Shown here in pieces: positions 37,719 through 59,896 of a DNA stretch of 64,000 bases (its first letter is position 1; every line of letters starts with the position of its first letter). The stretch lies in the sequence record OP557969.1; one strand, written 5' to 3'. The DNA comes from Escherichia phage ph0011. Made by a program: the position numbers and the translations under genes. Under the pieces are notes generated by a model that was given only the letters and a program-made list of their open reading frames with translations, did not search any database and had not been told where the DNA came from.

Positions 37719-37728
37719 GATATAATAT

Positions 37729-43467: not shown

Positions 43468-43496
43468 TTGACAGAACTTTAATACTGTTATATTAT
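43468..43496 (+). promoter_or_regulatory. candidate promoter
   Basis: TTGACA ... TATATT/TATTAT. Confidence 0.4.
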
Positions 43497-43817: not shown

Positions 43818-44156
43818 ATGGAACAATATTTTGAATTAATTAATAAAGTGTCATTCTATGTAGTGTCATTGACGTGGGTTTATTTCATGTTTTGCTACAT
43901 TATTGCATTCTTCCGATATACTACTTTATATGAACGTATCTATTATGATGCACCAATTTCATTCTTGGTGTTCTGTGCATGTACGTGGGGAATATTAGAA
44001 GTACTGATATGTGGATATAGAACTGATGAATTAAATCTGGTATCGGTATTGACTGGGTTATCACTTGGTGTTATGATATCTTTCTTTCCAGTATGGTTGT
44101 TCTTTGAACTGATCCATCGCATTGATGTATGGCGTTCTAATATCCCTGAAAAATAA
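43818..44156 (+). CDS. small membrane protein family A, member 1
   Basis: TM-rich; C-terminal IHRIDVWRSNIPEK. Confidence 0.5.
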   Translation: MEQYFELINKVSFYVVSLTWVYFMFCYIIAFFRYTTLYERIYYDAPISFLVFCACTWGILEVLICGYRTDELNLVSVLTGLSLGVMISFFPVWLFFELIHRIDVWRSNIPEK

Positions 44157-44159
44157 GGA

Positions 44160-44507
44160 TTGATAATGATTTTCTACACTAATTCGTTTGCTTATGCTAT
44201 TGCATCAATCTACATTGTGTACTTCTTATTTGGTGGAGTACTGTACTTCTTTAAGTACAAAACATTGTTTAACAGAATGTATCCAAATCACCCAATTGTA
44301 GTAGTACTTTTGATAATTTCTGTTGCTCATATCATTGTAGAAACAATAATGGGTATCAGTGCAGTACATTACAGTCTAGGTACTATTGTAATTATTACTA
44401 TGATCATAGCATACATTTTAGTAATGGGTTCTGGTTTATTTGGGAATGTAGCAATGAAAATGTATAATCGAATCAAAACATTACGTGATAATCTACCGGA
44501 GCGTTGA
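44160..44507 (+). CDS. small membrane protein family A, member 2
   Basis: C-terminal KTLRDNLPER. Confidence 0.5.
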   Translation: MIMIFYTNSFAYAIASIYIVYFLFGGVLYFFKYKTLFNRMYPNHPIVVVLLIISVAHIIVETIMGISAVHYSLGTIVIITMIIAYILVMGSGLFGNVAMKMYNRIKTLRDNLPER

Positions 44508-44508
44508 G

Positions 44509-44853
44509 TTGTATAATTTAAATTTAATATCATATATCATAACAACAATGTTTACTTTCTATGCCTTTGTTGGTATAATCCTACTGTACTTTAAATTTTA
44601 TAAAGTCTTTGACCGTTTATTTCCATCATTGGAACATGAATTCTTATTGGTGATGTACATCTGTTTAACGTGTATGTCTACATTTTTCACTGTATTTGAT
44701 GGTATCATTGGTATTAAAGCTGAATATCCAAATGGAAGTACACTTGTTGCCTTTATACTGGTAGGATTCTTCGGTACTTATATCACTTTCATTTCAACAT
44801 GGTCTGTGGTTGATTATCTCATTAGATTACGAAATAAAATGCCAAATCGATAG
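44509..44853 (+). CDS. small membrane protein family A, member 3
   Basis: C-terminal IRLRNKMPNR; start uncertain (TTG 44509 after GGAG, or ATG 44548). Confidence 0.4.
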   Translation: MYNLNLISYIITTMFTFYAFVGIILLYFKFYKVFDRLFPSLEHEFLLVMYICLTCMSTFFTVFDGIIGIKAEYPNGSTLVAFILVGFFGTYITFISTWSVVDYLIRLRNKMPNR

Positions 44854-44862
44854 GGGATTGCT

Positions 44863-45120
44863 ATGTTTGCATTGCGTAATAAAAATACAAAAGAGATTCT
44901 ATGTATCTCAGCAGTATGGGATTGTGCAGGAAGTGAAATGATCCTCGAAGAAGGTTCAGGTGATTGTGTTTATGTTGTTCAGGATCGTCGTGAACTTGAA
45001 TCATTACTTGATGAATTTAATGCTGGTGGTAATCCTAAAAGTACTGAATTCCCTGTGATTATTAATCCAGCATCACCTGGTTCTTATGAAATTCTACAAC
45101 TGTGGGAGATGGATAAGTAA
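44863..45120 (+). CDS. hypothetical protein
   Basis: ORF 85 aa. Confidence 0.45.
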   Translation: MFALRNKNTKEILCISAVWDCAGSEMILEEGSGDCVYVVQDRRELESLLDEFNAGGNPKSTEFPVIINPASPGSYEILQLWEMDK

Positions 45121-45500
45121 TGCGTCAAATGTACAAAGTAACCGAGCTAAACAAGCGTCTGATTAAACAATCAATGTTCGAGGACAAAGAGTCTTATTAT
45201 AACTTTAAACGTGCTGTAGAGGCTGCTATCCATATCCAGAAGCTTAAAGATAGTGGTTGTATTATTCTCGAAAATGGTTCTGATGTTGTAACGGATGACT
45301 TTAGTGTAGCGTTTGATGTTTCACCAGATGGCACACTATCAATGCCACGATTAGGAACTGGAAACATGACTGTTTGGGTCGGCTTCACTATGGGTAATGT
45401 ACCAGACACGGTGTATGTAGATGATATTGAGTTGAAAGAAAGCTTCAAAAACTTATCTTATCTTGAACCACAATACGCACATGAAATGAATTTATTTTGA
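45120..45500 (+). CDS. hypothetical protein
   Basis: ORF 126 aa. Confidence 0.45.
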   Translation: MRQMYKVTELNKRLIKQSMFEDKESYYNFKRAVEAAIHIQKLKDSGCIILENGSDVVTDDFSVAFDVSPDGTLSMPRLGTGNMTVWVGFTMGNVPDTVYVDDIELKESFKNLSYLEPQYAHEMNLF

Positions 45501-45501
45501 G

Positions 45502-45529
45502 TTGACAAACAGATTTAGTACTGTATAAT
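45502..45529 (+). promoter_or_regulatory. early promoter
   Basis: TTGACAAACAGATTTAGTACTGTATAATG. Confidence 0.65.
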
Positions 45530-45576
45530 GTTTACCAACGGGATGAATTTCCCATCCCTACTATCGAGGAATTACC

Positions 45577-46131
45577 ATGATTACTTTTAAGAAAACAGCT
45601 AACCATATCCATGAAATTTACATTAACGGTCATAAAGCTGGGCTTCTTCGCTTACTGGCACATCATCCTAATGTAGACGTATCTGATAATGAACCTAAAG
45701 ATTGGCGTGTCTTTTTCTTTGGAAAGTACAGTGATTTTCAAGTATCAAATCTGAAGAATATTCGTTCAGTATGCACGTTAACTGAAATTAAAGAAAAGTT
45801 AGCAGAAGCACTGAAAACCAATCCAAATGGAATCCTTCCTCCTGATAACTTTGTAGATAAAGGTTATGCTTTAGCTCATTTCAAAGATGGTACTATTCAA
45901 TCTATTAGTACTGAATATGAATATCACTGGACTGAGTACTTCACTTATGGCTCACCTAATACATTGATGGCTTCACGTAGTAAATTGGAAGAAGTACTGA
46001 CGCGTATTAATGAACGCGAGCGTCAGTTCTATGACAAACCAGAAATGTGGAGTTCAACTTACATTGACCGTATTGACTATGTTATTATGACTCCAATCTT
46101 TAACACTGCTTACTATGATTCTTTGAAATAA
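45577..46131 (+). CDS. hypothetical protein
   Basis: ORF 184 aa. Confidence 0.5.
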   Translation: MITFKKTANHIHEIYINGHKAGLLRLLAHHPNVDVSDNEPKDWRVFFFGKYSDFQVSNLKNIRSVCTLTEIKEKLAEALKTNPNGILPPDNFVDKGYALAHFKDGTIQSISTEYEYHWTEYFTYGSPNTLMASRSKLEEVLTRINERERQFYDKPEMWSSTYIDRIDYVIMTPIFNTAYYDSLK

Positions 46132-46142
46132 GGATAACTTAT

Positions 46143-46319
46143 ATGAAACTACGTACTCGTAATCGCCTGATGGATGCACTGTATCATGAACAGTATTCAT
46201 TAAATGAAGTAAAGCGTCAGCTAATGTATACATATCAGTTACCAGCCCGTACTGCGAAACAGCGTGCTAAAGAATTACTGAAAGAAGCTATCGAGTACTG
46301 GGAATCCGATTCGTATTAA
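46143..46319 (+). CDS. small basic hypothetical protein
   Basis: 58-aa ORF read from sequence (MKLRTRNRLMDALYHE...). Confidence 0.35.
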   Translation: MKLRTRNRLMDALYHEQYSLNEVKRQLMYTYQLPARTAKQRAKELLKEAIEYWESDSY

Positions 46320-46358
46320 TATTACGTGATATGTCACATTAATTAAGTGAGACGATAA

Positions 46359-46610
46359 ATGAAAATTTTATTAGTTCTAATACTACTAATTGTTTTACCA
46401 TTTACTTTAGTATCTCCTGAACTTGCATGGAATGTGTTTGTGTACTTGGTATGTACTATTGCGGTAAATGGTATCTTGTTCTTAGTTCTATTCATAAATG
46501 GAATAGGACACGGTGGTGGATGGACCAGTACTGCTAATATTGTACATAAAACCACTATGTCTTTATTTGTAGTGTGGAATTTATTCTGGACTTGGTTTGT
46601 GTTCTTCTAA
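46359..46610 (+). CDS. small membrane protein
   Basis: 83 aa. Confidence 0.45.
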   Translation: MKILLVLILLIVLPFTLVSPELAWNVFVYLVCTIAVNGILFLVLFINGIGHGGGWTSTANIVHKTTMSLFVVWNLFWTWFVFF

Positions 46611-46618
46611 TTAAAAAT

Positions 46619-46990
46619 ATGAATATAGATTTGAAAGGTTCAACACGAACTGTTATCCTTATTGGTGATTATGCTATTAAGATTCCAACCTTTAAAAGTT
46701 GGAAGTTATTCCTAACTGGAATGATAGCGAACCTCAATGAACGTTCATGGATGCAGTACTCCAATCGTAGTGATAGTGGAATATCCCCTACGCTGTGGTC
46801 CTCTCGTACTGGTTTAATAACAGTACAGAAACGTTGTAAACCTGTACAACATAGGGGTTTATTTTGGGTTGAGTTGTGTGCGTTGGCATCAAAATCAGAG
46901 TTGAATACTGACTTCTTCTATTCAGATGCGAAGCCAGAAAACTTTGGGTATCTGTGTGGTAAGTTGGTTAAACTTGATTATGGAGATTAA
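46619..46990 (+). CDS. hypothetical protein
   Basis: start MNIDLKGSTR. Confidence 0.4.
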   Translation: MNIDLKGSTRTVILIGDYAIKIPTFKSWKLFLTGMIANLNERSWMQYSNRSDSGISPTLWSSRTGLITVQKRCKPVQHRGLFWVELCALASKSELNTDFFYSDAKPENFGYLCGKLVKLDYGD

Positions 46991-46991
46991 T

Positions 46992-47261
46992 ATGTACGCA
47001 TTGTATAATAAAGAAAAGAAACGATTTGCTAAGGTTGAAATTTCGATTGATACATTTGACATGTTGGAGTACTGTATTGTAACGGATTTATATGCTAACT
47101 TGTATTACGTTCTTGATGACGTATCAGTACTGCAACGATTGCTTGAGAATTCCAAAAGTCAATGCCAGGGCATCTATGATGGTTCATCTTATGAAACACC
47201 TGAGTGTTCCTACGGCTATCTGGACGGGTATGAGATTGTAAAGTTGGGGATTGTTGAATAA
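46992..47261 (+). CDS. hypothetical protein
   Basis: start MYALYNKEKK. Confidence 0.4.
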   Translation: MYALYNKEKKRFAKVEISIDTFDMLEYCIVTDLYANLYYVLDDVSVLQRLLENSKSQCQGIYDGSSYETPECSYGYLDGYEIVKLGIVE

Positions 47262-47273
47262 ATTGATTAAACA

Positions 47274-47687
47274 ATGAAGAAGTGTATCGCATGTAATATT
47301 GAAAAAGACATTAGTGAATTTGGTATAAGAAAAGATACTGGGAAACATAGAAATACATGCAAAGGTTGTAGTAATATTACCAGTAAGAAAACCAGAAATA
47401 AAAAAACTGATGTCAAAAAGCTTGAAGAAATCAAAAGAAAAAATAAAGATTTCATGACCAGAGTTAAATCATTTTATGGATGTAGTATTTGTGCGATGAA
47501 GTATCCAGAATGTTTAGACTTTCACCATCTTGACCCTAATACTAAAGAACATACACCAAGTTCTATGTTCAGTAAAAGTCGAGATGCTATCAAAGATGAA
47601 ATTCGAAAGTGTATGATTCTTTGTTCTAATCATCATCGCATGGTCCATTCTGGAAGACTATGTTTAATTGAAAGAAAAAAGGGTTGA
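47274..47687 (+). CDS. HNH endonuclease with zinc ribbons
   Basis: CIACN...CKGC; CSICAMKYPECLDFHHLDPNTKEH...CMILCSNHHRMVH. Confidence 0.65.
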   Translation: MKKCIACNIEKDISEFGIRKDTGKHRNTCKGCSNITSKKTRNKKTDVKKLEEIKRKNKDFMTRVKSFYGCSICAMKYPECLDFHHLDPNTKEHTPSSMFSKSRDAIKDEIRKCMILCSNHHRMVHSGRLCLIERKKG

Positions 47688-47713
47688 CTTCTGTCAGCCC
47701 TTTTTGTTATAAT
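47680..47713 (+). promoter_or_regulatory. PeSL-like terminator-promoter module (copy 4)
   Basis: GGGTTGACTTCTGTCAGCCCTTTTT + TATAAT; HNH stop codon inside. Confidence 0.7.
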
Positions 47714-47743
47714 CATTTCATCGAAGCTTGAGGATATTAAAAA

Positions 47744-48226
47744 ATGAACTACTTAGATTTGATTAACTCATATGTAATTAGCCCATATATTAACGATGAA
47801 AGTATTAAATGTGTAGTATCAGTTGAGGATCACCCAACTGGTGCATTAAAACTATTTGGTGCAGGTCAAATTAACAACCGCAACGGGTATACATTTGAAT
47901 ATTTACCATCAAGTGATAAGTTTGGATGTTATGACCACGAAACAAATAAGGGATATATTTGGGGAACACACTTAAGTATTGCACAATCTTCGCTTTTCGA
48001 AGACCATAATGGGTATATGTGGCGATATTTGGGTGCAGTACTGCTTGATATCGCCCGTAGGTATAAGAAGTGTATAACATTAACTTATACTCATACAAAT
48101 GAATATAAAAACGAAGTTCAAGTTAATGATGAGGAATTTTTTAAAAATATTCCTTATATTGATTTTAACTGTCAAAATGGTTATGCTACATACCCAGCAA
48201 GTTTTGAAGGTGAAAGATACTTTTAA
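47744..48226 (+). CDS. hypothetical protein
   Basis: ORF 160 aa. Confidence 0.5.
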   Translation: MNYLDLINSYVISPYINDESIKCVVSVEDHPTGALKLFGAGQINNRNGYTFEYLPSSDKFGCYDHETNKGYIWGTHLSIAQSSLFEDHNGYMWRYLGAVLLDIARRYKKCITLTYTHTNEYKNEVQVNDEEFFKNIPYIDFNCQNGYATYPASFEGERYF

Positions 48227-48319
48227 AAAAGAGTTGATTTAAAATGTATAAGTGATATACTTATCATATCAAGACGAAACAACAACCAACATGTAAACGC
48301 TACTAATTAGGAGACACAC

Positions 48320-48730
48320 ATGATCAACAAACATTTCGCAGTTTCCAAAACTGTAACCATCGATAATGAATGGGAAATTACCATTCTAAATGATACGGCT
48401 CGTGGACTACTGGCAGAGAATATTCTCCAGAAGTATATTGACTGTGAATCTGAGTTGATCATTCATGAACGCACTAAATTTCTTCTAATTGGTGGAAAGA
48501 AATGTAAAGTTCTGGTATTCACTGACAAAATGACCCGTGCAGATATCATTACTAAATTGGTTAGTTCTTCACGTCATCGTCCAGGTGTTAATAGATCAAT
48601 CGATGAGATTAAAGAAATGAAGCCAGGTGATTTATTCATTGTCGCGGGGTTTGATTCAAAAACGAGAAAAATGAGTATTTCAGAAATGTATACTAATGCT
48701 GAAATGCGTAATAAATTCTTTTCTAACTAA
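48320..48730 (+). CDS. hypothetical protein
   Basis: ORF 136 aa, AGGAGA RBS. Confidence 0.5.
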   Translation: MINKHFAVSKTVTIDNEWEITILNDTARGLLAENILQKYIDCESELIIHERTKFLLIGGKKCKVLVFTDKMTRADIITKLVSSSRHRPGVNRSIDEIKEMKPGDLFIVAGFDSKTRKMSISEMYTNAEMRNKFFSN

Positions 48731-48776
48731 TCAACCCGTGTAGTGTAATTTTATACACATTTTAGATGGATAAAAT

Positions 48777-49982
48777 ATGATCTTCGAAACTGAAAAAACA
48801 TTACTTGAAACTTACACTTTGGATAATCTAGTTAAACTTAACCTTGAACGACCAGATATCCAACGCAATTGGCAATGGAAAAATAATAACCAAAACAATC
48901 TTATTATTTCTATTCTAAAGAATTCTCCAATTGGTCAATTTTTGGTATGGAATGAAACTAGCTCGAATACTATGTACATCACTGATGGTCGTCATCGCTA
49001 TACAGTAATTTCAAACTTCATGAACAATAAATTTCCAGTCACTGTTAGAACTGAAGATGGGACTAAGGATTATTATTATGGTTCTGATGATCCAGTAGAA
49101 GAAGAAAACATTTCACTGAAACTTGGTGGAAAACGTAAAACATGGGATTTTTTATCTAAAGAAGAGCGTGATGCGTTTCGTGCAAAGGAAGTATCAGTAA
49201 CATTCGTTCATACCGACGATGCTGAAAAGATTTCAGATATGTTTATTGCAATTAATACTGCATCATCTAATCTATGTAAAGTGGATTTGTTAGTATGTAA
49301 GCACCACACAAATACATATATGAAACGTATTGATAAGCTATTTTCAATTGAGTTTGGTAAAGATGAACCCATGGCATCATTAGTTAGTGATTTTTACCGT
49401 GCAATCGGTCATTGTTGTGTTAATGGTAATCATGAGAAACACTTATCAAAGCTTAAAGCTAACCCTAAAGTACAGAAGCGTGAATTTTTTGAAATGTTCT
49501 TTATGGTCAAAGCGTTCGCGAAATTATGTGCTAGTGCACTAGATGGTAAGCTAAACTCATACCGTATGCCAAAGATGAACCAACAAATTGAAGAAGCAAT
49601 TATTAGTACTGAATCTCTTAGTGAGAAACATGCTGATGCTGATTTTGTTCAGTTTGTTAATGCAGTTCGTGAGATGAATTTAGTATCACCTGTAAAATCT
49701 GCACAAAAATTTCAATTTATCCATGAAGATATGAAGAATACCTTTAATAAGAGACTCTTTTGTATTTTGATGGGATTGTTTTATGCTTATGGTACAAGAT
49801 TGCCATTACATTTTCGTGATGTATGGGGTGACATTTATAATGAAATGTCAGAAAAAAGTTCAGAACTACCTACTAATGGAACCGATAGTCCTTCCGCAAT
49901 TTTAGCTGGCATTGAAATGATTGAACCATACTTTAGTTCAGCATTCAATAATATTCCATTGAGTGCTTACGTGGGAAAGTGA
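48777..49982 (+). CDS. DUF262-like (ParB/Srx-fold, GmrSD N-domain type) protein
   Basis: RPDIQRNWQW...LIISILKNSPIGQFLVW...YITDGRHRYTVISNF matches DUF262 pattern (P-x-FQR...W, DGQQR-like). Confidence 0.6.
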   Translation: MIFETEKTLLETYTLDNLVKLNLERPDIQRNWQWKNNNQNNLIISILKNSPIGQFLVWNETSSNTMYITDGRHRYTVISNFMNNKFPVTVRTEDGTKDYYYGSDDPVEEENISLKLGGKRKTWDFLSKEERDAFRAKEVSVTFVHTDDAEKISDMFIAINTASSNLCKVDLLVCKHHTNTYMKRIDKLFSIEFGKDEPMASLVSDFYRAIGHCCVNGNHEKHLSKLKANPKVQKREFFEMFFMVKAFAKLCASALDGKLNSYRMPKMNQQIEEAIISTESLSEKHADADFVQFVNAVREMNLVSPVKSAQKFQFIHEDMKNTFNKRLFCILMGLFYAYGTRLPLHFRDVWGDIYNEMSEKSSELPTNGTDSPSAILAGIEMIEPYFSSAFNNIPLSAYVGK

Positions 49983-50191
49983 AAAAACGTGGTGTACTAA
50001 ATACACTACAAAAACAATATCTTTTGAAAAGATATTCTTTGTGTTATCTTTGTGGACAGAAGATATCGGATTCAGATATACTACATTTTGACCATGTTCA
50101 ATCATTAAAAGATGGTGGTAGTAATGAATTAAGTAATATACGACCAACGCACTCCATTTGTAATTTACGTAAAGGTGCTAAGAGTATGTAA
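49979..50191 (+). CDS. small HNH nuclease
   Basis: CYLCGQK...HFDHVQSLKDGGSNELSNIRPTHSICNLRKG; ATGA-coupled to DUF262 gene. Confidence 0.65.
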   Translation: MKKRGVLNTLQKQYLLKRYSLCYLCGQKISDSDILHFDHVQSLKDGGSNELSNIRPTHSICNLRKGAKSM

Positions 50192-50240
50192 AGCTAATAC
50201 TCCCCAAAGATGGGGAGTATATATAATTAAAGGGATTTAT

Positions 50241-51077
50241 ATGAGTATTAAAAATAAATTAGATCAGTATTATACAAATCCAGAGTATGCTAAAAAATGT
50301 TATACTAAATCATTAGAGTTTATTTCGTCTCGAATGGACATTAATTCATCTTATTATATGGAGCCTTGTGTTGGGACTGGTTCGTTTTATCTACAGTTTC
50401 CTGAATCCCGTCGATTTGGGTGTGACATTGATCCGGTACATCTTGATGAAAATGTTATCCATTCCGATTTTTTACTTGAATTTGGTATCAATGCAAGAAG
50501 TAAAGGTGAACCAATACTTGTTATAAGTAATCCACCTTTTGGAAAAATTTCTTCTTTAGCCATTAAGTTTTTTAATAAATGTGCATCAATGCCTGAAGTG
50601 AAATATATTTGTTTTATTGTCCCTATGACATTTCGAAAAGCAGCAACACAAAATAAACTCAATGAGATGTTTCACCTGGTATTGGATGAAGATTCTCCAA
50701 ATGACGCTTTTATACTGCACGGAGAACCACATCATGTACCATGCGTGTTTCAGATATGGGAACGTAGGGATACAGTTCGTGAGAAACATGAGATTAAGAA
50801 CAAATCAGACTATTTCGATTATTGTACTAAGGAAGAGGCTGATGTTTTTATAAAACGTGTAGGAACCAAAGCAGGTGAGTATGCCGAGCCAGGGAAAGAA
50901 CACAAAGATGCAAGTATGTACTACATCAAAACTAAGTATGTTGATGAAATCATTAAGGTTTTGAAAAGTAAAGATTACCTTGATGAGATAAAACGTATAC
51001 GTAAAACCACAGCAGGGGTATACTGTGTGTCCAAATCTGAAATCGTTCTTAATATTGAAAAACGTTTGAATCTTTGA
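50241..51077 (+). CDS. DNA N6-adenine methyltransferase (gamma-class motif order), N4-cytosine not excluded
   Basis: YYTNPEYA (motif X-like), EPCVGTGSF (motif I), ISNPPFG (motif IV); start at MSIKNKLDQ. Confidence 0.6.
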   Translation: MSIKNKLDQYYTNPEYAKKCYTKSLEFISSRMDINSSYYMEPCVGTGSFYLQFPESRRFGCDIDPVHLDENVIHSDFLLEFGINARSKGEPILVISNPPFGKISSLAIKFFNKCASMPEVKYICFIVPMTFRKAATQNKLNEMFHLVLDEDSPNDAFILHGEPHHVPCVFQIWERRDTVREKHEIKNKSDYFDYCTKEEADVFIKRVGTKAGEYAEPGKEHKDASMYYIKTKYVDEIIKVLKSKDYLDEIKRIRKTTAGVYCVSKSEIVLNIEKRLNL

Positions 51078-51084
51078 AAATTAT

Positions 51085-51117
51085 AGGTTGACTTCGGTCA
51101 GCCTTTATTGTTATAAT
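51085..51117 (+). promoter_or_regulatory. PeSL-like terminator-promoter module (copy 5)
   Basis: AGGTTGACTTCGGTCAGCCTTTATTG + TATAAT. Confidence 0.7.
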
Positions 51118-51145
51118 CATTTTATATAAACAAGAGGATGATTAC

Positions 51146-51649
51146 ATGACACGCATTAATTTAGTACACGTTAAAGAGCTTGCTGACCAACATTTGATGG
51201 CTGAATATCGTGAACTTCCACGGGTGTTCGGTGCTGTACAAAAACACGTCCAAGCACGTAAGAGTGTCCGTAATTTCAAAATTAACAGTACTTATCTGTT
51301 AGGTTCAGGTCATGTGACATTTTTCTACGACAAGTTACTGTACTTACAAAAGCGTCATGTTGAGATTGTCAACGAATGTTTGCGTCGTGGTATGAAGATT
51401 CAAAACACAGAAGTAAACGACATTAGCAGCTTCCCTGATGAGTTTTGTAATGACTACGTACCTTCGGAGTCAGAGATTAAAATGTCTCGTGACCGTTTGA
51501 TTGAGAAGCTCCAGATGAAGCCTAAGTGGTATAAGTTTACTGCTGTTGAAATTCCACAGTACGTTAAAGATATGCAGAACGTAAAATCTAGTACTGATAT
51601 GTTCGAAGAAATTGAAGAGCAAATCAAAGATGAAATGAATAATTATTAA
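51146..51649 (+). CDS. denV: endonuclease V, pyrimidine-dimer DNA glycosylase
   Basis: [31 protein letters not shown]...[12 protein letters not shown] matches my recollection of T4 DenV nearly residue for residue over the N-terminal half. Confidence 0.85.
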
Positions 51650-51654
51650 AGGTA

Positions 51655-51688
51655 AGGGTTGACTTCGGTCAACCCTTTTTGCTATAAT
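51655..51688 (+). promoter_or_regulatory. PeSL-like terminator-promoter module (copy 6)
   Basis: AAGGGTTGACTTCGGTCAACCCTTTTT + TATAAT. Confidence 0.7.
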
Positions 51689-51716
51689 CATTTCATCAAC
51701 TACAGAGGGTAACGAA

Positions 51717-52490
51717 ATGAACCGTACAGAAAAAGCACTTCAAATCGAAAAAAACTTCAACTCTATGATGGCAGCACTGGAATGTCTTCTGGATACACAA
51801 ACCAACTCCATCAATTCTTTGATTGTATCAGGAAAAGGTGGTGTTGGTAAAACTTACAACGTTGACCAGCGTTTACGGAAAGCGGATGATAACTTTGAAA
51901 TTGACTACAAAAAAATCAGTGGTAAAGTAACTACTGTGGGTCTGTACGAAGCACTGTATCGTTCACGTCATGCTGCTTCTGTACTGTTGCTGGATGATGT
52001 TGATATCTTCTCTGATGAGACTAACATTGACTTACTCAAAGCTGTATTGGATACATCTGAAAAGCGTGTAGTATCATATGCAACATCTGCTAAGTACCTT
52101 GAACAGCAGGGTATTCCTAAGCAGTTTGAATTCCGTGGTAAGGTTATCTTCCTGACGAACAAAAACCTGTCACAGATTGCTAAAGGTAAAAGTAGTTTAG
52201 CACCACACATCGATGCACTTATTACTCGTAGCATCTTTGTTGACCTGCAACTGTTTACAAATGAAGAAGTAATGATTCACATTGAAAACATTATGAACAA
52301 AACAAACATCCTTGAAAACAATGGTGTTAACAAAAATGGTTGCAAAGCAATTCTGAATTGGATGCTGAACAATGAAGATCGTCTGCGTAGCCCATCACTG
52401 CGTATGCCAGTACTGATCGCTGGTTTGTATAATAAATTCCCATACGACTGGGAGTCAATGGCAGAGAATATGTTCCTTGAGAAAATTTAA
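51717..52490 (+). CDS. P-loop NTPase
   Basis: Walker A SGKGGVGKT, Walker B-like VLLLDDVD. Confidence 0.55.
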   Translation: MNRTEKALQIEKNFNSMMAALECLLDTQTNSINSLIVSGKGGVGKTYNVDQRLRKADDNFEIDYKKISGKVTTVGLYEALYRSRHAASVLLLDDVDIFSDETNIDLLKAVLDTSEKRVVSYATSAKYLEQQGIPKQFEFRGKVIFLTNKNLSQIAKGKSSLAPHIDALITRSIFVDLQLFTNEEVMIHIENIMNKTNILENNGVNKNGCKAILNWMLNNEDRLRSPSLRMPVLIAGLYNKFPYDWESMAENMFLEKI

Positions 52491-52552
52491 TTATATGTGT
52501 TGACGATTCTACTATAGTGTAGTACTATAATACTTCATTCTGGAGATACGAT

Positions 52553-52894
52553 ATGCTTGAGTTTTTTAATTCAAATACAATGCTTGGTATTACTTTAATT
52601 TACATGTTTGTATTTTTGTTTTATCATTCAATTGTAATTAGCCTGTGGTATTTTAAAAGGAAAGTTGTTTTTAAATTGTATTCGTATGATAATGTATTCT
52701 TAGTTGTATATAGTATTGTACAAGGTGGGTTTATTTTATTTGGTATTATGACTTATTTCATTTATCGATTGGAAATTGATAATACACCACACATTACACA
52801 ATATGTTGTGTTTTCTGGACTAATCGTGTGGTTGTTGACATGTGTCGTGTACTTTATTATTAAAGCTCGTGACAAAATTAAAGGGGAATTCTAA
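52553..52894 (+). CDS. small membrane protein family A, member 4
   Basis: LWYFKRK after TM1; C-terminal ARDKIKGEF. Confidence 0.5.
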   Translation: MLEFFNSNTMLGITLIYMFVFLFYHSIVISLWYFKRKVVFKLYSYDNVFLVVYSIVQGGFILFGIMTYFIYRLEIDNTPHITQYVVFSGLIVWLLTCVVYFIIKARDKIKGEF

Positions 52895-53232
52895 TGTTAA
52901 CATTTTTTCAGTCAGATACAATGATTAGTATTACGTTGATTTATCTGTTTGGATTTTTCTTTTATCATGCACTAGTTGTAGTACTATGGTATTTTAAAAA
53001 GAATATAGTTTTCAAACTGTATCCTAAAGGAAACGTTTCATTACTTCTTTTCACTATTATCCAAGGTATCTTTGCAATTTTTGGTATTACTGCACATTTA
53101 ATTTATTGTGCTAATCCACATTTGAACTCAATATCACAATACATTGTATTTTTTGGATTACTAATTTGGGTACTAATATACGTAACTAATCTCATCATTA
53201 ATGGTAGAGCTAAAATTCACGGAGACTTTTAA
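52894..53232 (+). CDS. small membrane protein family A, member 5
   Basis: close paralog of 52553 (MLTFFQSDTMISITLIY...). Confidence 0.5.
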   Translation: MLTFFQSDTMISITLIYLFGFFFYHALVVVLWYFKKNIVFKLYPKGNVSLLLFTIIQGIFAIFGITAHLIYCANPHLNSISQYIVFFGLLIWVLIYVTNLIINGRAKIHGDF

Positions 53233-53579
53233 TGTTTGAATCTTATCTTGACTTTTTAAGGAATAGTCCAGTAGCACACTCACTTGCTGGGATTGTTCTA
53301 TCAGGCTATATCACATTTTGGGTAGTTATGTTTCTAGGATGGTATTTTAAACGACAATTCTATAAGCGTAACGGTGAAGATTTTATGAATTCTGCTATTA
53401 ATCAATCGTTGTTTGCATCAACATTGATAGCATCAATTGTAGCAACACTCACTGGTGCAGTTCTATCAGCATTCGCCGCAGTTTACGGCACACTTGGAGT
53501 GGTATGTTTATCTTTAATATTGATCATTAAACTTTGTTGTGTTATGATTGAACTTCGAAATAAGATACCGGAGGAATGA
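53232..53579 (+). CDS. small membrane protein family A, member 6
   Basis: GWYFKRQ; C-terminal ELRNKIPEE. Confidence 0.5.
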   Translation: MFESYLDFLRNSPVAHSLAGIVLSGYITFWVVMFLGWYFKRQFYKRNGEDFMNSAINQSLFASTLIASIVATLTGAVLSAFAAVYGTLGVVCLSLILIIKLCCVMIELRNKIPEE

Positions 53580-53914
53580 TGGAGTATTTTATTGATTTAC
53601 TGCCGTGGTATATGAAAGTGAGTATTTTATACTATATTATTAGTACTGGATTCTACTTCCTGATGTGGTTTTTTAAACGACCAATTTCAGTGTACATTGC
53701 TGATAACATGCTGCAATTAAAATTACAAGCATGGTTTTATATGGCGATGTTTATGCCTATTATTCACTATTCAATGATTAGTCTAGGTTTACGTTCTAAT
53801 GGTGAACCAATTGTATTAGTATTCTATTGGACTTCAACTCTAGTATATGTCGGTTTGTTGTTATACCCAATCGTTCATATATTACGTGCTAAAGTTCCTG
53901 ATGCGAGGTACTAA
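53576..53914 (+). CDS. small membrane protein family A, member 7
   Basis: WFFKRP; C-terminal LRAKVPDARY. Confidence 0.5.
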   Translation: MMEYFIDLLPWYMKVSILYYIISTGFYFLMWFFKRPISVYIADNMLQLKLQAWFYMAMFMPIIHYSMISLGLRSNGEPIVLVFYWTSTLVYVGLLLYPIVHILRAKVPDARY

Positions 53915-54228
53915 TGGATATAGTAACATTGATTTACACGTTGTATTCATTCTATTTTATTATGTGTTGGATTGGATTTTTATTTGTACTGAAGACGTTT
54001 GATTATGTTGAAAGACAGATAAAAGAATTTTGTATTCCTTTTATTGGGTCAACCATAATTAGTATTACTTGTTTGTATTATTTGGTATGTGATCCACCAG
54101 ATAACACTGCAATGATTGACTTTATGTTAGCACCAACTACTGTTATTTTTTTATGTAGTCTGCTGCCACCTATTAGTCGTGGGTTAGCAGAATTTAGACG
54201 CAAACAAAAGCTTAAACGAGGGATGTAA
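53914..54228 (+). CDS. small membrane protein family A, member 8
   Basis: tandem position, TM-rich, basic C-terminus. Confidence 0.45.
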   Translation: MDIVTLIYTLYSFYFIMCWIGFLFVLKTFDYVERQIKEFCIPFIGSTIISITCLYYLVCDPPDNTAMIDFMLAPTTVIFLCSLLPPISRGLAEFRRKQKLKRGM

Positions 54229-54596
54229 TGGAAATCACACTTATTATATTAACTTCTATGTTGTTTATTAGTACAGTTGTTATTATTGGCAAGTTCTTCT
54301 GTGTATCCTTCTTGGAAACCGTATATGATGAAATTGCAGATGATTATGAATTAGAAGCAGGATTTTTTATTACGTATTGGGTTAGTTTATTACTGCTTAT
54401 CACAGTATGGGTTTTGCATATATTCCAATGGGGTATGGTTGGTGATGATCCATTACTGGGAATTATTTGTGCGACATTTGGGCTACTGACTGGTGCTGCC
54501 CACAATCTGATAGTAATTGTGCAAACTATAAAATGCGTATTAGTTCCACATTTTCAGAGAATGCACCAAAACATTAAACGCCGCAAACGAGGTTAA
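54228..54596 (+). CDS. small membrane protein family A, member 9
   Basis: tandem position, TM-rich, basic C-terminus. Confidence 0.45.
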   Translation: MEITLIILTSMLFISTVVIIGKFFCVSFLETVYDEIADDYELEAGFFITYWVSLLLLITVWVLHIFQWGMVGDDPLLGIICATFGLLTGAAHNLIVIVQTIKCVLVPHFQRMHQNIKRRKRG

Positions 54597-54597
54597 T

Positions 54598-54960
54598 ATG
54601 AACGGGATAGAGTTATCTGTGTTTGGTCAATCACTAATAATTATTAATACTTTCTTTTTCTCACTTAATTCATTTATGTGTATTGGGAAGTATTTTCATA
54701 AACGACCATTATCAAATATATATGATGTAATTCAAACGAGATATAGTCCAGCATATACTATAGTTATTAGCAGTTTCAATTTTGGTTTTGTTTTATTAGT
54801 AATTGGAATGTTAACATCAACGTTGAATATCATCACATTCGGTCTTATGATATGTTCATTGGCATTAACATTAGTTATATGTTGTTTAGTACTACACCTT
54901 ATGGTTCTATTATATTTAAAGATATATGAAATTCACCACCGCTTAGGTACGAGGAAATGA
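54598..54960 (+). CDS. small membrane protein family A, member 10
   Basis: GKYFHKRP; TM-rich. Confidence 0.45.
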   Translation: MNGIELSVFGQSLIIINTFFFSLNSFMCIGKYFHKRPLSNIYDVIQTRYSPAYTIVISSFNFGFVLLVIGMLTSTLNIITFGLMICSLALTLVICCLVLHLMVLLYLKIYEIHHRLGTRK

Positions 54961-54961
54961 T

Positions 54962-55333
54962 ATGAGTTATCGTGAAGTATTTTCTATAATTTCAATTATT
55001 ATGTTCAGTGCTGGAACATTGATTTGGTTACTATACTTTTTCTGTATTAATCCAGTGTATAATATGTTATGCAATATTAAATCAAGTACTGGCTATATGA
55101 CTTTTATGATCTTTATGGGATATTATTGTCTAAGCATTTTAGGTGTTTTTTTTGTTGTTATATTTGATATAGGGCCAAACAAGGACGGTCTACAAATGTA
55201 TGAGTTAATAACTATGTTTGGGTGTATGATACCAACCGCACTAATGTTTGTAGCTATTGGTTCTGGATGTATAAAGTTATACAATTATTTAAAATCCATT
55301 CATCATTACATTCATAATAAACGTATGTCCTAA
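54962..55333 (+). CDS. small membrane protein family A, member 11
   Basis: tandem position, TM-rich. Confidence 0.45.
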   Translation: MSYREVFSIISIIMFSAGTLIWLLYFFCINPVYNMLCNIKSSTGYMTFMIFMGYYCLSILGVFFVVIFDIGPNKDGLQMYELITMFGCMIPTALMFVAIGSGCIKLYNYLKSIHHYIHNKRMS

Positions 55334-55337: not shown

Positions 55338-55370
55338 AATCCAGTACTGAATAGTACTGGATTATTTGAG
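55338..55370 (+). terminator. rho-independent terminator
   Basis: AATCCAGTACTGAATAGTACTGGATTATTT. Confidence 0.55.
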
Positions 55371-56067: not shown

Positions 56068-57213
56068 TTATTTTTTCCAAGGAAGTAACGAAGTTGGAAT
56101 TTTGATAGGTATATTTGATGAAACAACATCAGGAAAATTTGCATCCCCACAAACATACAAATTATCGTCTTCGTCTATCAACAATATATAGTTGTAACTT
56201 CTACAAAACCCATTTAAACTTCTTCCCTCTAATGCAGATAAATTTATTTCAGTGAATTGTGTTATATATGTTTCATTTGAACCAACACCACATTGACCAT
56301 TAGCATTTATACCACAAGTAAGCAATTTATTATTGTTTTGAATTATACATGATGGTCCAGCAAGGTTCGTACCTAGTTCACCTACAACATTAACCTCACC
56401 TTGTAATGATAAATTTGGAATCACTGTACTCATTGGGACACGAGATGTATTTCCAACACCGGCTTGACCTGAACCATTAGTGGATGCTACTTTAACAGTA
56501 CCGTCATTAAGAAAAATATAAGATGTTTCGATTGTATTAACTGCTTGAGTAGCTGATGTTATTGACGTATCCTGTTTGAAACTAAGTACATTTGTTGTTG
56601 TCGAACCAGAGATAAATGTAGCACCTGCGTACCAATATGTTCCATCCTGGAGTACTAAACCAGTACTTCTAATTGAACACCCAGCACTTCGAACATTTTC
56701 TATATGACTATATGTAAAGGTTGATACAATTGAAGATTCACCATTACCGAATACCCCACCAGTACCTGCACCACAGAAAAACCATTTGCCGTTTTTCAAA
56801 AATACACGCATACAAGCAGAAATAACCACACTATCAATATCACTTGCAGTTACACCAAAATCGGTAAAGAAATGAGTTATATCAATCCAATTGCCACCAG
56901 TATTTGATGGGAGATGTGGAATTACCACTCTAGTCCCTGTGTACCAGATTGTATCATCATCTTTAATAACAAGCGTACCTTGAACACCACCCCAATACCT
57001 GATTACATTAGTATTAACAAGTGTCCACTCAGTAGATGATTCCGTTGAGCCATTACCACCTTGACCATATGATGATGAACCACACCAGTATAAATCGCCA
57101 TTTTTATTTAAATAAAATTTTGCATCAGCCGAACATTGTAATCTGTATTTGAATACTGTTTTTGGTGCTGGTGCAATATTTGCATACTTAATCATTCTTC
57201 CAAAAGGTATCAT
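56068..57213 (-). CDS. beta-propeller (RCC1-like repeat) protein, MLPFGRM family paralog 5
   Basis: start MIPFGRMIKYANIAP after GGAGG; repeats like DLYWCGSSSYGQGGNG. Confidence 0.55.
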   Translation of the reverse strand: MIPFGRMIKYANIAPAPKTVFKYRLQCSADAKFYLNKNGDLYWCGSSSYGQGGNGSTESSTEWTLVNTNVIRYWGGVQGTLVIKDDDTIWYTGTRVVIPHLPSNTGGNWIDITHFFTDFGVTASDIDSVVISACMRVFLKNGKWFFCGAGTGGVFGNGESSIVSTFTYSHIENVRSAGCSIRSTGLVLQDGTYWYAGATFISGSTTTNVLSFKQDTSITSATQAVNTIETSYIFLNDGTVKVASTNGSGQAGVGNTSRVPMSTVIPNLSLQGEVNVVGELGTNLAGPSCIIQNNNKLLTCGINANGQCGVGSNETYITQFTEINLSALEGRSLNGFCRSYNYILLIDEDDNLYVCGDANFPDVVSSNIPIKIPTSLLPWKK

Positions 57214-57284
57214 ATTTCCTCCTTTATCCATTGTACTGTATTTAATCCAAATTAGAAAAGCCAGTATCAAGTACTGGCATTGTA

Positions 57285-58634: not shown

Positions 58635-58705
58635 ACTTCCTCCTTATTCATCATACTATATTTAATACAAATAAGAAAAGCCAGTATCAAGTACTGGCTT
58701 TTACA

Positions 58706-59896
58706 TTACAATTGTCTAGGTGTATCCAGAACATATCTATTTGTTTTAGGACCACCATCATCATAAGTTCCGGTTGAATATATATTTTTCATATCAGCAG
58801 TTAGGAAAGTACGCAACGAACCGCGATATATTTTTATTTTATCATACATAGAATATGTTATTTCTGACGGCAATGGACATGCAGTAAATTTACCAATGGT
58901 AGCATCATAACCAACACCCAATGTGCCAGCATAACTACTCGCATTTAAACCAGTTGCATATACACCTGCACTCGTAACTAGTATACTAGATTGTGCTGGG
59001 TATCCAGTATGGATTGAATAATAAGTACCGGGTGGTAATGTAGCACTATTATTTCCTAAAACTCCATTAACATTGCTAGATGTAGTTTTATTTCCCCATG
59101 CTCCATTATTAGCTAATCCACCAACTAGAAACTGACGTGCTCCTGTACTTGGATTCTCTACTAAAGCACTGACAGCACCAAATGAACAAACAGTATATTG
59201 TAATGTTTTTGTATATGTGGTACTTGGCTGATATAAAGTATATTCATTAAATGGTGTCCATGTGGTACTAGTACTTATGCCAGATGTACTACCACCAATA
59301 TATAAATTATTTTGTGTATCAAAAAACATTGCACAGTAATTTGTTGACTGTATTTGTGCAATATCTACATCTGGTGTTACCGCTTTAACAAATGAACCAT
59401 CTGATATTTGATAAGTAGTTCCTGTACCATCTGCGAATTGTCTAGCACTATTCCACCCTGTACTCCATATTGTATTATTATCCATTAAGAAAGTAAACCA
59501 CGTAGTACCTGCATACATTTGTTTAATTGAAGTACTTGAACTTTGTTTGTACAAATTTTCAATATATTGGTTATAACTTAAAAACGTAGTAGTACTAGTT
59601 TCTAAACCAATATGACTACCATATCCACAATAAAAATAATTTAAGTCATTATCTTGAACTAACAAAGTTCCTTGTGTCATCCAGCAATCTTTGACATTTT
59701 CTCTAATTAATGTCCACGACCTTACTGCATTATTATTTCCTCTACCAAACTTCCCCCAACTATTACTGCCTCGTGCGTATAGTTGACCGTCGGTATAAAG
59801 TACAACAACCTCAGTATCAGTTGGTATTATTTTCTTAATTTGAAGTGGGACGGGTACAATATTCCCGTACTTAACTATTCTCCCAAAAGGTAACAT
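58706..59896 (-). CDS. beta-propeller (RCC1-like repeat) protein, MLPFGRM family paralog 3
   Basis: MLPFGRIVKYGNIVP; repeats QLYARGSNSWGKFGRGNNN. Confidence 0.55.
   Translation of the reverse strand: MLPFGRIVKYGNIVPVPLQIKKIIPTDTEVVVLYTDGQLYARGSNSWGKFGRGNNNAVRSWTLIRENVKDCWMTQGTLLVQDNDLNYFYCGYGSHIGLETSTTTFLSYNQYIENLYKQSSSTSIKQMYAGTTWFTFLMDNNTIWSTGWNSARQFADGTGTTYQISDGSFVKAVTPDVDIAQIQSTNYCAMFFDTQNNLYIGGSTSGISTSTTWTPFNEYTLYQPSTTYTKTLQYTVCSFGAVSALVENPSTGARQFLVGGLANNGAWGNKTTSSNVNGVLGNNSATLPPGTYYSIHTGYPAQSSILVTSAGVYATGLNASSYAGTLGVGYDATIGKFTACPLPSEITYSMYDKIKIYRGSLRTFLTADMKNIYSTGTYDDGGPKTNRYVLDTPRQL

What the first reader, a model, noticed from the sequence alone, without database searches (positions are those of the whole stretch)
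43818..55333. Eleven paralogous ~115-aa membrane proteins in two tandem arrays (3 + 8)
Members at 43818, 44160, 44509 and 52553 through 54962 share the architecture TM1, a [WY]-[FY]-F-K-[RK] motif, two further TM segments and a basic C-terminal tail with R-x-K-[IVLM]-P-[DE] (e.g. IHRIDVWRSNIPEK, LRDNLPER, ELRNKIPEE, LRAKVPDARY). 52553 and 52894 are close duplicates. Tandem diversification of small inner-membrane proteins fits an exclusion, immunity or channel-modulating function, but I do not recognise the family.
Basis: seen in the sequence. Interest (0 to 1): 0.6.

Follow-up and report, generated by a model that had tools for sequence, protein, structure and literature searches.

The report
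Jumbo-phage family of small membrane proteins
Eleven related, roughly 110-residue, three-pass inner-membrane proteins sit in two tandem arrays in this jumbo coliphage; they belong to an undescribed family found next to the same ATPase gene in every RaK2-like jumbo phage checked, and their function is unknown, with blocking of attacks on the infected cell's membrane as my best guess.

Summary
All eleven ORFs are real genes under purifying selection, each with its own ribosome-binding site. Each has three hydrophobic helices and a predicted N-out/C-in topology.

They form one divergent family with two sub-clusters: A1-A3, B1, B2, C and D, and E-H. Profile-profile comparison links the two (E 8e-8 over the full length; controls no better than 1e-4), and intermediate forms occur in related phages.

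The window is an Asteriusvirus-like jumbo phage of the 121Q/PBECO4 group. The family is absent from Pfam, NCBIfam, PADLOC and PDB, and PHROGs splits it into at least six families of unknown function.

An array of 4-12 members lies directly downstream of the NrdC.10-type ATPase in every RaK2-like jumbo phage examined, but not in T4-like phages.

Paralogue types and their order are conserved between genera. The sequences nevertheless diverge much faster than their neighbours, alleles reassort gene by gene, and copy number varies (one or two copies of B, C or E).

The genes lie in a sigma70-promoter (early-type) region and were not found in the phAPEC6 virion proteome.

Function is untested. My best guess, at low confidence, is a set of Imm-like inner-membrane exclusion or immunity factors. 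This is a new family of moderate interest.

The parts
43818..44156 (+). Member A1 (112 aa, 3 TM; AFFRY elbow, tail RSNIPEK)
   Evidence: Hits phrog_19285 at E 3e-52. dN/dS 0.18 against 121Q.
44166..44507 (+). Member A2 (113 aa from ATG 44166; the ORF opens at TTG 44160)
   Evidence: AAGGA lies 6 nt upstream of ATG 44166. BLASTP to A1 gives 7e-10.
44509..44853 (+). Member A3 (114 aa, TTG start, GGAG Shine-Dalgarno inside the tail codons of A2)
   Evidence: Homologues P0001-P0003 begin MYNLNL.
52553..52894 (+). Member B1 (113 aa; WYFKRK elbow, tail RDKIKGEF)
   Evidence: Present in the window, 121Q and UE-S1. Absent from PBECO4, BF17, WPEC5 and TH47.
52894..53232 (+). Member B2 (112 aa; 51% identical to B1)
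53232..53579 (+). Member C (115 aa; WYFKRQ elbow, tail LRNKIPEE)
   Evidence: 100% identical to a protein named from Escherichia phage ph0011. Truncated in Salmonella phage SD-2_S15.
53579..53914 (+). Member D (111 aa from the second ATG; 112 aa from 53576; WFFKRP elbow, tail LRAKVPDARY)
   Evidence: AlphaFold2 model has pLDDT 88.5 and pTM 0.75. Orthologues in RaK2 and K64-1 are 36-38% identical.
53914..54228 (+). Member E (104 aa; GFLFVLK elbow, tail FRRKQKLKRGM)
   Evidence: Duplicated in Turkey5 and JNE01. Split into two ORFs in 121Q.
54228..54596 (+). Member F (122 aa; GKFFCV elbow, tail MHQNIKRRKRG)
   Evidence: AlphaFold2 model has pLDDT 87.9 and pTM 0.75, with the same helix order as D.
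54598..54960 (+). Member G (120 aa; GKYFHKRP elbow, tail IHHRLGTRK)
54962..55333 (+). Member H (123 aa; LYFFCINP elbow, tail IHHYIHNKRMS)
   Evidence: The RaK2 orthologue scores 96 bits.
51717..52490 (+). P-loop ATPase homologous to T4 NrdC.10. It is the conserved upstream neighbour of the array in all RaK2-like jumbo phages examined.
   Evidence: A functional link to the array is not shown.
43468..43496 (+). Sigma70-type promoter-like site (TTGACA-17-TATTAT, 11 of 12 matches) upstream of orf43535 and array 1
   Evidence: Consensus match only.
52500..52531 (+). Promoter-like site (TTGACG, then TACTAT at 17 nt or TATAAT at 20 nt) in the 62-nt gap in front of array 2, followed by a GGAG Shine-Dalgarno
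   Evidence: Read directly from the sequence.
51657..51674 (+). Hairpin GGTTGACTTCGGTCAACC, a combined terminator and -35 cassette, followed by TATAAT upstream of the ATPase
   Evidence: One of six copies in the window; none expected by chance.
55339..55363 (.). Palindromic hairpin (TCCAGTACTGAATAGTACTGGA) just after the last member; a possible operon end

Best explanation
Shown here. The eleven genes are ancient, diverged paralogues of one family of small three-pass membrane proteins. The family is restricted to RaK2-like jumbo phages. Each protein is a compact three-helix bundle predicted to insert N-out/C-in. Its two conserved elements are both on the cytoplasmic face: an aromatic-Phe 'elbow' at the end of TM1 and an Arg/His-containing basic tail after TM3. 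The TM2-loop-TM3 half is the most variable part.

Inferred. The genes are translationally coupled, lie in a sigma70-promoter (early-type) region, and are not virion components.

Committed guess. Early in infection each paralogue inserts into the host inner membrane and uses its variable intramembrane hairpin to bind a different membrane-embedded target. The conserved cytoplasmic elements supply the common anchoring and positioning function.

The most likely targets are channels or pores that breach the inner membrane of an already infected cell. Candidates are the genome-delivery channels of superinfecting phages, which is how T4 Imm acts when it binds the tape-measure channel, or membrane-acting toxins. 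On this reading the arrays form a multi-specific exclusion or immunity battery that protects a long jumbo-phage infection cycle.
For: One family:
- hhalign between the two super-clusters gives E 8e-8 over the full length, well beyond the controls.
- Each cluster's HMM ranks the other cluster next after its own members.
- Bridging forms such as WFFCLSG...IHNRIRAEK occur in metagenomic relatives.
- A 43-sequence alignment has an invariant Phe and an invariant Arg.

Real genes:
- dN/dS is 0.13-0.36 against 121Q.
- Every member has a Shine-Dalgarno sequence.

Topology and fold:
- Lys+Arg counts are 71 on the predicted inside and 7 on the outside.
- The AlphaFold2 models have pLDDT around 88 and the same helix order in D and F.

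Early and non-structural:
- Sigma70-type promoters and terminator-promoter hairpins lie upstream, and no TATAAATA lies near either array.
- The phAPEC6 orthologues gp012c-017c and gp028c-029c are absent from the 62-protein virion proteome (PMC7247149).

Accessory, individually acting character:
- Members are 25-50% identical to their Turkey5 orthologues, against 78-94% for neighbouring genes.
- Alleles reassort gene by gene. H is 85% identical to 121Q but 60% to BF17, while A2 is 98% identical to BF17 but 84% to 121Q.
- Duplications are lineage-specific, and truncated copies occur in isolates that were propagated and sequenced.
- The array downstream of the ATPase holds 4-12 members across the clade.

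Precedent: T4 Imm is a small early inner-membrane protein that blocks superinfection by binding the tape-measure channel (bioRxiv 10.64898/2026.03.06.709160).
Against: - No experiment bears on function.
- No sequence or profile similarity to Imm (hhalign P 0.3) or to any family in Pfam, NCBIfam, PADLOC or PDB.
- Paralogue types and their order (B, C, D, E, F, G, H) are kept between Asteriusvirus and RaK2, which infect different hosts. That looks more like a fixed functional set than an arms-race cassette.
- Whole-gene dN/dS is below 1, and the periplasmic loops are not hypervariable (0.38, against 0.40-0.42 for TM2 and TM3).
- The early timing rests only on promoter consensus matches.
- Small membrane proteins are easily missed by virion mass spectrometry.
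Confidence: 0.3

Rival explanations
1. Host-takeover or anti-defence factors. Each paralogue binds and inhibits, or re-purposes, a conserved host inner-membrane protein, such as a transporter, divisome or elongasome component, a protease like FtsH, a respiratory complex, or the membrane effector of an abortive-infection system. The role would not be to exclude other phages.
For: The topology, early-type context, non-virion status and fast divergence are the same as for the best explanation. Keeping the same paralogue types across phages of E. coli, Klebsiella and Salmonella fits targets that are conserved in Enterobacterales. The arrays sit among takeover-type genes, including a T7-like protein kinase, nucleases and a GmrSD_N-domain protein.
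Against: No homology to any known inhibitor, and no PADLOC or Pfam signal. Nothing identifies a target. Viable phages with truncated or missing copies show that no single member is essential.
Confidence: 0.25
2. Subunits of one hetero-oligomeric inner-membrane assembly, a phage-built platform, channel or anchor. It might work with the adjacent NrdC.10-type ATPase through the conserved cytoplasmic elbow and tail motifs.
For: The array sits directly 3' of the ATPase in every RaK2-like phage examined: Asteriusvirus, RaK2, CBB, GAP32, BF, Munch, and four of the five IMG/VR and metagenomic contigs. The types and their order are conserved. The eight genes are spaced -1 to +1 nt apart with embedded Shine-Dalgarno sequences, which implies coupled, near-equimolar translation. 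Both conserved motifs face the cytoplasm.
Against: T4-like phages have NrdC.10 without any such array. ATPase alleles and array alleles are uncoupled: the window's ATPase is 94.5% identical to Turkey5's and 59% to 121Q's, whereas its array proteins are 72-88% identical to 121Q's and 25-50% to Turkey5's. Copy number varies from 4 to 12, and truncated members are tolerated. The three A-type members lie 7.7 kb away in a separate transcription unit.
Confidence: 0.15
3. Lysis control. One or more members act as class-I-type holins or antiholins. That class also has three TM helices, an N-out/C-in topology and a basic C-terminal tail.
For: Size, three TM segments, predicted N-out/C-in topology and a basic cytoplasmic tail match the textbook architecture of lambda-S-type class I holins (the holin architecture is from general knowledge). 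No holin has been assigned in this phage group, and the endolysin carries an N-terminal TM domain (PMC5259590).
Against: Eleven conserved paralogues are not expected for a holin. The predicted endolysin is far away (121Q gp532, against gp207-232 for the arrays). The region has sigma70-type rather than late-type promoter motifs. No Pfam or PHROG holin family is hit.
Confidence: 0.07
4. Not one family: independent hydrophobic ORFs whose resemblance is only compositional.
For: Most pairwise BLASTP values between clusters are non-significant. PHROGs keeps them in separate families. The E type links only weakly in shallow profiles (P 0.006-0.03).
Against: The full-length, in-register profile match at E 8e-8 exceeds the reversed and block-shuffled controls. 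Reciprocal HMM ranking places them above the other multi-TM ORFs of the same window. They share length, helix order and motif positions. Bridging sequences exist in relatives.
Confidence: 0.03

Closest known systems
T4 Imm (immunity to superinfection; 83 aa)
   Same: A small, early-expressed, non-virion inner-membrane protein of a large lytic myovirus. It acts within the membrane, binding the tape-measure channel of a superinfecting phage. This is the functional analogy used for the best explanation.
   Different: Two TM segments rather than three, and 83 aa rather than about 110. It is a single gene, not an array. No detectable homology (hmmsearch E above 0.09, hhalign P 0.3).
Class I holins (lambda S105 type)
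   Same: About 100-aa proteins with three TM helices, N-out/C-in topology and a charged, basic cytoplasmic C-terminus (general knowledge). The members here have the same predicted topology.
   Different: Holins are single or paired late genes, usually in a lysis cassette. Here there are 10-11 conserved paralogues in an early-type region far from the endolysin, with no hit to any Pfam or PHROG holin family.
PHROG families 19285, 19454, 19046, 27396, 33258 and 26405 (all 'unknown function')
   Same: Nine of the ten members scanned fall into these families, most at E 1e-44 to 1e-55 and A3 only at 0.0016. Member G matched no family, and H was not scanned against PHROGs.
   Different: PHROGs treats them as unrelated families. 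This analysis joins them into one superfamily and adds the more distant CBB, GAP32, BF and Munch forms.
Other phage inner-membrane exclusion proteins (P22 SieA, HK97 gp15) and E1-type pore-forming colicin immunity proteins (about 110 aa, 3 TM)
   Same: Small integral inner-membrane proteins that neutralise something entering or inserting into the membrane. The colicin E1-type immunity proteins have a similar size and TM count (from memory, not tested beyond the Pfam scan).
   Different: No member matched any Pfam, NCBIfam or PDB profile at E up to 1-10. Those proteins are encoded by prophages or plasmids as single genes.

Membership tests
New superfamily proposed here: 3-TM proteins of RaK2-like jumbo phages, encoded downstream of nrdC.10 | Length of about 100-130 aa with three TM helices and a short cytoplasmic helix between TM1 and TM2 | tested here: met
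   and the AlphaFold2 models.
New superfamily proposed here: 3-TM proteins of RaK2-like jumbo phages, encoded downstream of nrdC.10 | An aromatic-Phe elbow at the cytoplasmic end of TM1, and an Arg or His about 7-10 residues before a basic C-terminus | tested here: met
   Phe is invariant in A1, A2, A3 and A5. Arg is invariant in cluster 1 and is replaced by His or Arg in cluster 2.
New superfamily proposed here: 3-TM proteins of RaK2-like jumbo phages, encoded downstream of nrdC.10 | Tandem array directly downstream of the NrdC.10-type ATPase | tested here: met
   Met for the eight-gene array at 52553-55333. The three A-type genes lie 7.7 kb upstream, next to the T7-like kinase. In the metagenomic relative L006 the kinase lies only about 2.3 kb upstream of the ATPase and its array.
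T4 Imm | Sequence homology to Imm | tested here: not met
   hmmsearch gives E 0.14 and 0.095 in a two-sequence database. hhalign gives P 0.3 over 3 columns.
T4 Imm | Two TM segments, about 83 aa | tested here: not met
   The members here have three TM segments and 104-123 aa.
T4 Imm | Blocks genome entry of superinfecting phage by binding the tape-measure channel | not testable with these tools
   Needs plating and superinfection assays and binding studies.
Class I holin | Three TM helices, N-out/C-in, basic C-terminal tail, about 100 aa | tested here: met
   This is architecture only.
Class I holin | Homology to a described holin family | tested here: not met
   No Pfam hit at E up to 1, and no PHROG with a lysis annotation.
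Class I holin | Late expression and linkage to the endolysin and spanin genes | tested here: not met
   The upstream sites are sigma70-type, and TATAAATA is absent near the arrays. The endolysin homologue is 121Q gp532, far from gp207-232. Timing is inferred rather than measured.
Class I holin | Forms lethal membrane holes at a programmed time | not testable with these tools
   Needs induction and lysis assays.
Anti-phage defence or counter-defence families (PADLOC-DB) | Profile match to a catalogued defence protein | tested here: not met
   Best E values are 0.025-0.049, each for a single member.

The most novel reading that the evidence does not exclude
The arrays encode a conserved hetero-oligomeric inner-membrane machine built by the phage from 8-12 specialised paralogous three-helix subunits. 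It would be common to all RaK2-like jumbo phages and dock to a cytoplasmic partner, possibly the adjacent NrdC.10 ATPase, through the conserved elbow and tail motifs. That would make it a previously unknown phage organelle-like platform rather than a collection of independent accessory factors.
Probability: 0.12. Interest if true: 0.8.

Novelty: new variant of a known kind. Interest (0 to 1): 0.45.

Why it matters
RaK2-like jumbo phages (121Q, PBECO4, RaK2, K64-1, CBB, GAP32 and others) are being developed for therapy. More than 80% of their genes are unannotated.

This work merges six or more 'unknown' PHROG families, together with the 'putative membrane proteins' of several genera, into one superfamily. 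The superfamily has a defined topology, two diagnostic motifs and a diagnostic genomic position.

If the members are multi-specific exclusion or immunity factors, they would explain how a slow, large phage protects its infected cell. They would also extend the Imm paradigm from a single gene to a diversified battery.

If they form a complex, they would define a new phage-built membrane structure.

In either case the family is a compact and experimentally tractable target: eleven genes of about 340 bp each.

Tried and rejected
- **Family libraries.** Pfam, NCBIfam, PADLOC and PDB sequence searches gave only sub-threshold noise.
- **T4 comparisons.** T4 Imm and the genes next to nrdC.10 in a T4-like phage (nrdC.7, nrdC.8, nrdC.9) are unrelated.
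- **IMG/VR scan.** I used the ATPase as bait instead.
- **Regional variability.** Looking for a hypervariable periplasmic loop gave only a mild gradient, with TM1 and loop1 most conserved and no clear hot spot.
- **Literature.** Searches on 121Q/PBECO4/transmembrane, nrdC.10, Asteriusvirus, and jumbo-phage small membrane proteins found no description of the family.
- **Excluded data.** CMSTMSU (an UNVERIFIED record) is full of frameshifts, so I did not use it as evidence of gene loss.
- **Other membrane ORFs in the window.** I considered a third array at 36655-38459. The family HMMs do not hit those ORFs.

Full report
**What the window is.** The region matches Asteriusvirus jumbo coliphages (121Q, PBECO4, UE-S1, WPEC3 and others) at about 87-88% nucleotide identity over 54-68% of its length. 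One member is 100% identical to a protein named from 'Escherichia phage ph0011'. G+C is about 33%, and nearly all genes up to 56 kb are on the + strand.

**Checking the observation.** All eleven ORFs are present and are 104-123 aa long. Each has a Shine-Dalgarno-like element 6-13 nt upstream of its start. Genes within an array are spaced -1 to +9 nt apart. Three starts need refinement: ATG 44166 for the second member, TTG 44509 for the third (confirmed), and probably 53579 for the seventh. Ten members show three Kyte-Doolittle hydrophobic segments. The TM2 of D is amphipathic but is modelled as a helix. Lys+Arg counts are 3 (N-terminus), 29 (loop 1), 4 (loop 2) and 42 (C-tail). By the positive-inside rule this gives N-out/C-in.

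**Is it one family?** Pairwise BLASTP links only A1-A2-A3 (7e-10, 1e-7) and B1-B2 (51% identity, 5e-37). PHROGs places the members in at least six separate families of unknown function. I added orthologues from 121Q, from Salmonella phage SD-2_S15 and from the much more divergent Turkey5. With these, profile-profile comparisons link A-C, B-C, C-D, F-G and F-H at P 1e-4 to 1e-5, whereas reversed-sequence controls never beat 0.0096.

The two resulting super-clusters are A1-3/B/C/D and E/F/G/H. They align in register over 106 columns at E 8.3e-8 and probability 94.5%. Controls gave 0.05 and 0.005 for reversed profiles and 1.3e-4 for the best of 30 block shuffles. In an independent test, an HMM of cluster 2 ranks the seven cluster-1 genes as the next seven hits among the 259 ORFs of the window. 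The cluster-1 HMM ranks the four cluster-2 genes at positions 8, 9, 10 and 12. Both HMMs place them ahead of the other multi-TM ORFs of the window.

Relatives contain bridging forms, such as 'VGWFFCLSG...EIHNRIRAEKNY' and 'IGHFFCQPF...SFRDNLKEKKEY'. AlphaFold2 models of D (pLDDT 88.5) and F (pLDDT 87.9) have the same order of elements: TM1, a short cytoplasmic helix, TM2, a periplasmic turn, then TM3 with a cytoplasmic extension. I therefore regard the paralogy as confirmed.

The invariant features are one Phe in the elbow after TM1 and one Arg in the tail, which becomes His or Arg in E-H.

**A caveat on the tail motif.** The last two to four codons of each member contain the Shine-Dalgarno sequence of the next gene. 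For example, ccGGAGgaa encodes P-E-E, cGAGGg encodes R-G, and gcGAGG encodes A-R. Part of the terminal 'P-[DE]' or 'R-G' conservation may therefore be selected at the nucleotide level. The invariant Arg/His lies outside that window. A1 also keeps P-E without an embedded Shine-Dalgarno sequence.

**Distribution.** A word-indexed search of 5.8 billion proteins found only 31 hits for cluster 1 and 11 for cluster 2, all from this phage clade. An exhaustive HMMER scan of 1.84 billion cluster representatives with the cluster-1 profile found 36 representatives at E up to 1e-3. All of these are 89-120 aa except one 56-aa fragment, and nearly all match over their full length.

The distant hits lie on metagenomic jumbo-phage contigs of 30 kb and 324 kb. 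There they form arrays of about 12 and about 10 small 3-TM genes placed directly after a 254/255-aa P-loop ATPase. That ATPase corresponds to window 51717-52490. It is a homologue of T4 NrdC.10, with 1309 phage records and about 41% identity to T-even phages.

The same arrangement of ATPase, array, and then oppositely oriented RCC1- or Kelch-like genes is found widely:
- in RaK2, whose ORF309-316 read as types C, C, B, D, E, F, H plus one extra type;
- in CBB, GAP32, Serratia phage BF and Salmonella phage Munch;
- in four of five IMG/VR loci.

The fifth IMG/VR locus is T4-like and has no array. The T4-like phage PP01 also has none.

Among Asteriusviruses, the window, 121Q and UE-S1 have 3+8 genes with two B copies. 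PBECO4, BF17, WPEC5 and TH47 have 3+7 with one B copy. Turkey5 and JNE01 have 3+8 with one B and two E copies. SD-2_S15 carries a truncated C, and 121Q a split E.

**Evolutionary behaviour.** dN/dS against 121Q is 0.13-0.36, which indicates purifying selection that is somewhat relaxed compared with 0.07-0.18 for neighbouring genes. Against Turkey5, the members are only 25-50% identical, whereas the neighbours orf45120, orf45577, endoV and the ATPase are 78-94% identical. Alleles reassort gene by gene. The ATPase allele is uncoupled from the array alleles: the window's ATPase is 94.5% identical to Turkey5's but 59% to 121Q's. Within orthologue groups, TM1 and loop 1 are the most conserved regions (0.28-0.30 differences per site). 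TM2, loop 2 and TM3 are the most variable (0.38-0.42).

**Expression context.** This part is inferred.
- A TTGACA-17-TATTAT site precedes orf43535 and array 1.
- A TTGACG...TACTATAAT site plus a GGAG lies in the 62-nt gap before array 2.
- Six copies of the hairpin GGTTGACTTCGGTCAGCC, a terminator stem that carries a -35 box and resembles the promoter-early stem-loops of T4-type phages, punctuate 38.6-51.7 kb. None is expected by chance.
- The T4-type late motif TATAAATA is under-represented, at 4 copies against about 15 expected, and is absent near the arrays.
- The phAPEC6 orthologues gp012c-017c and gp028c-029c are not among the 62 virion proteins. The neighbouring RCC1-like proteins gp003-010 are among them (PMC7247149).

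**Comparison with known families.** There is no significant match in Pfam, NCBIfam, PADLOC or PDB sequences. The fold is a generic three-helix bundle. T4 Imm is not homologous and has two TM segments. The architecture equals that of class I holins, but number, position and promoter type argue against a holin role. None of the papers I could search describes the family. The published annotations go no further than 'hypothetical' or 'putative membrane protein'.

**Mechanism.** The following are shown or strongly inferred:
- these are small N-out/C-in inner-membrane proteins;
- their conserved elements face the cytoplasm;
- the intramembrane C-terminal half is variable;
- they are co-translated;
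- they are probably early and non-structural;
- individual copies are dispensable, since sequenced isolates carry truncated or missing copies.

My committed but low-confidence (0.3) reading is a multi-specific, Imm-like protective battery. The variable TM2-TM3 hairpins would bind different membrane-inserting intruders, such as the tape-measure channels of superinfecting phages or membrane toxins. The precedent is Imm binding the T4 tape-measure channel.

The rivals are inhibition of conserved host membrane proteins or of membrane-acting defence effectors (0.25), a hetero-oligomeric machine possibly tied to NrdC.10 (0.15), and lysis control (0.07). The conservation of paralogue types and order across genera is the main fact that the arms-race reading does not explain well. 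The decoupling of ATPase and array alleles, the copy-number range and the tolerated truncations are the main facts against the machine model.

**Verdict.** This is a real and previously unrecognised superfamily with a clear genomic signature. Its function is unknown. Interest is moderate (0.45): the family is not surprising in kind, because phages carry many small membrane proteins. It is, however, unusually large, ancient, ordered and clade-diagnostic, and it can be tested directly.

Noticed in passing
window 38651, 41433, 42770, 47682, 51086, 51657 (+ strand): Six copies of an 18-nt hairpin, GGTTGACTTCGGTCAGCC. The terminator-like stem contains a TTGACT -35 box and is followed by TATAAT about 17-18 nt later. 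None is expected by chance. They flank gene cassettes (kinase, endoV, ATPase) and resemble the 'promoter-early stem-loops' implicated in modular shuffling in T4-type phages.
   Followed up: partly
window 36655-38459 (+ strand): A different small-membrane cluster. A 74-aa 3-TM ORF is followed by two apparent pairs, each a membrane protein followed by a secreted or lipoprotein-like protein: 36955 (106 aa, 3 TM) with 37359 (119 aa, LLFSC lipobox-like signal), and 37729 (125 aa, TM, basic tail) with 38103 (118 aa, signal peptide). The family HMMs do not hit them.
   Followed up: no
window 56068-62335 (- strand): Five tandem RCC1-repeat-like proteins of 373-449 aa, convergent with array 2. The phAPEC6 homologues ('DNA condensation proteins' gp003-010) are virion components. 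The same block of convergent RCC1-, Kelch- or Laminin_G-like genes follows the membrane array in most of the RaK2-like relatives examined.
   Followed up: partly
window 51717-52490: The NrdC.10-type ATPase is mosaic. It is 94.5% aa identical to the distant phage Turkey5 and 99% to UE-S1, but only about 59% to 121Q and BF17, although the flanking genes are closest to 121Q-type phages. At least two deeply diverged alleles circulate among Asteriusviruses.
   Followed up: partly
window 47274-51077 (+ strand): A variable cassette between the two arrays that differs from 121Q. It holds an HNH/zinc-finger-like 137-aa protein, a 401-aa GmrSD_N (DUF262) domain protein (E 1e-17), a 70-aa HNH protein and a 300-aa protein of unknown family. 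It looks like a nuclease or anti-restriction island inserted upstream of endoV.
   Followed up: no
window 52880-54965 (gene junctions of array 2) and 44150-44510: The Shine-Dalgarno sequence of each downstream gene is embedded in the last 2-4 codons of the upstream gene (for example ccGGAGgaa = Pro-Glu-Glu). Protein tail motif and translational coupling signal are therefore dual-coded.
   Followed up: yes
window, whole: The T4-type late-promoter octamer TATAAATA occurs 4 times, against about 15 expected from shuffles, so it is depleted in this mostly early-type region.
   Followed up: no
L009 12637-12981 (RaK2 ORF316); L006 13755-14078; L004 13586-13894; L017 9482-9832; L019 9523-9855; L018 8407-8745: A further 3-TM type ('...VVAYH..L.....DY..G.DKL...') closes the array in RaK2, CBB, BF, Munch and the metagenomic relatives, but has no counterpart in the window or in the other Asteriusviruses. 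It links only weakly to the family HMM (E 1e-4 to 0.5).
   Followed up: partly
window 46359-46610 and 27060-27955: Other conserved small multi-TM ORFs that do not belong to the family: an 83-aa 2-TM ORF, which corresponds to 121Q gp214, and 157-aa and 141-aa multi-TM ORFs.
   Followed up: no
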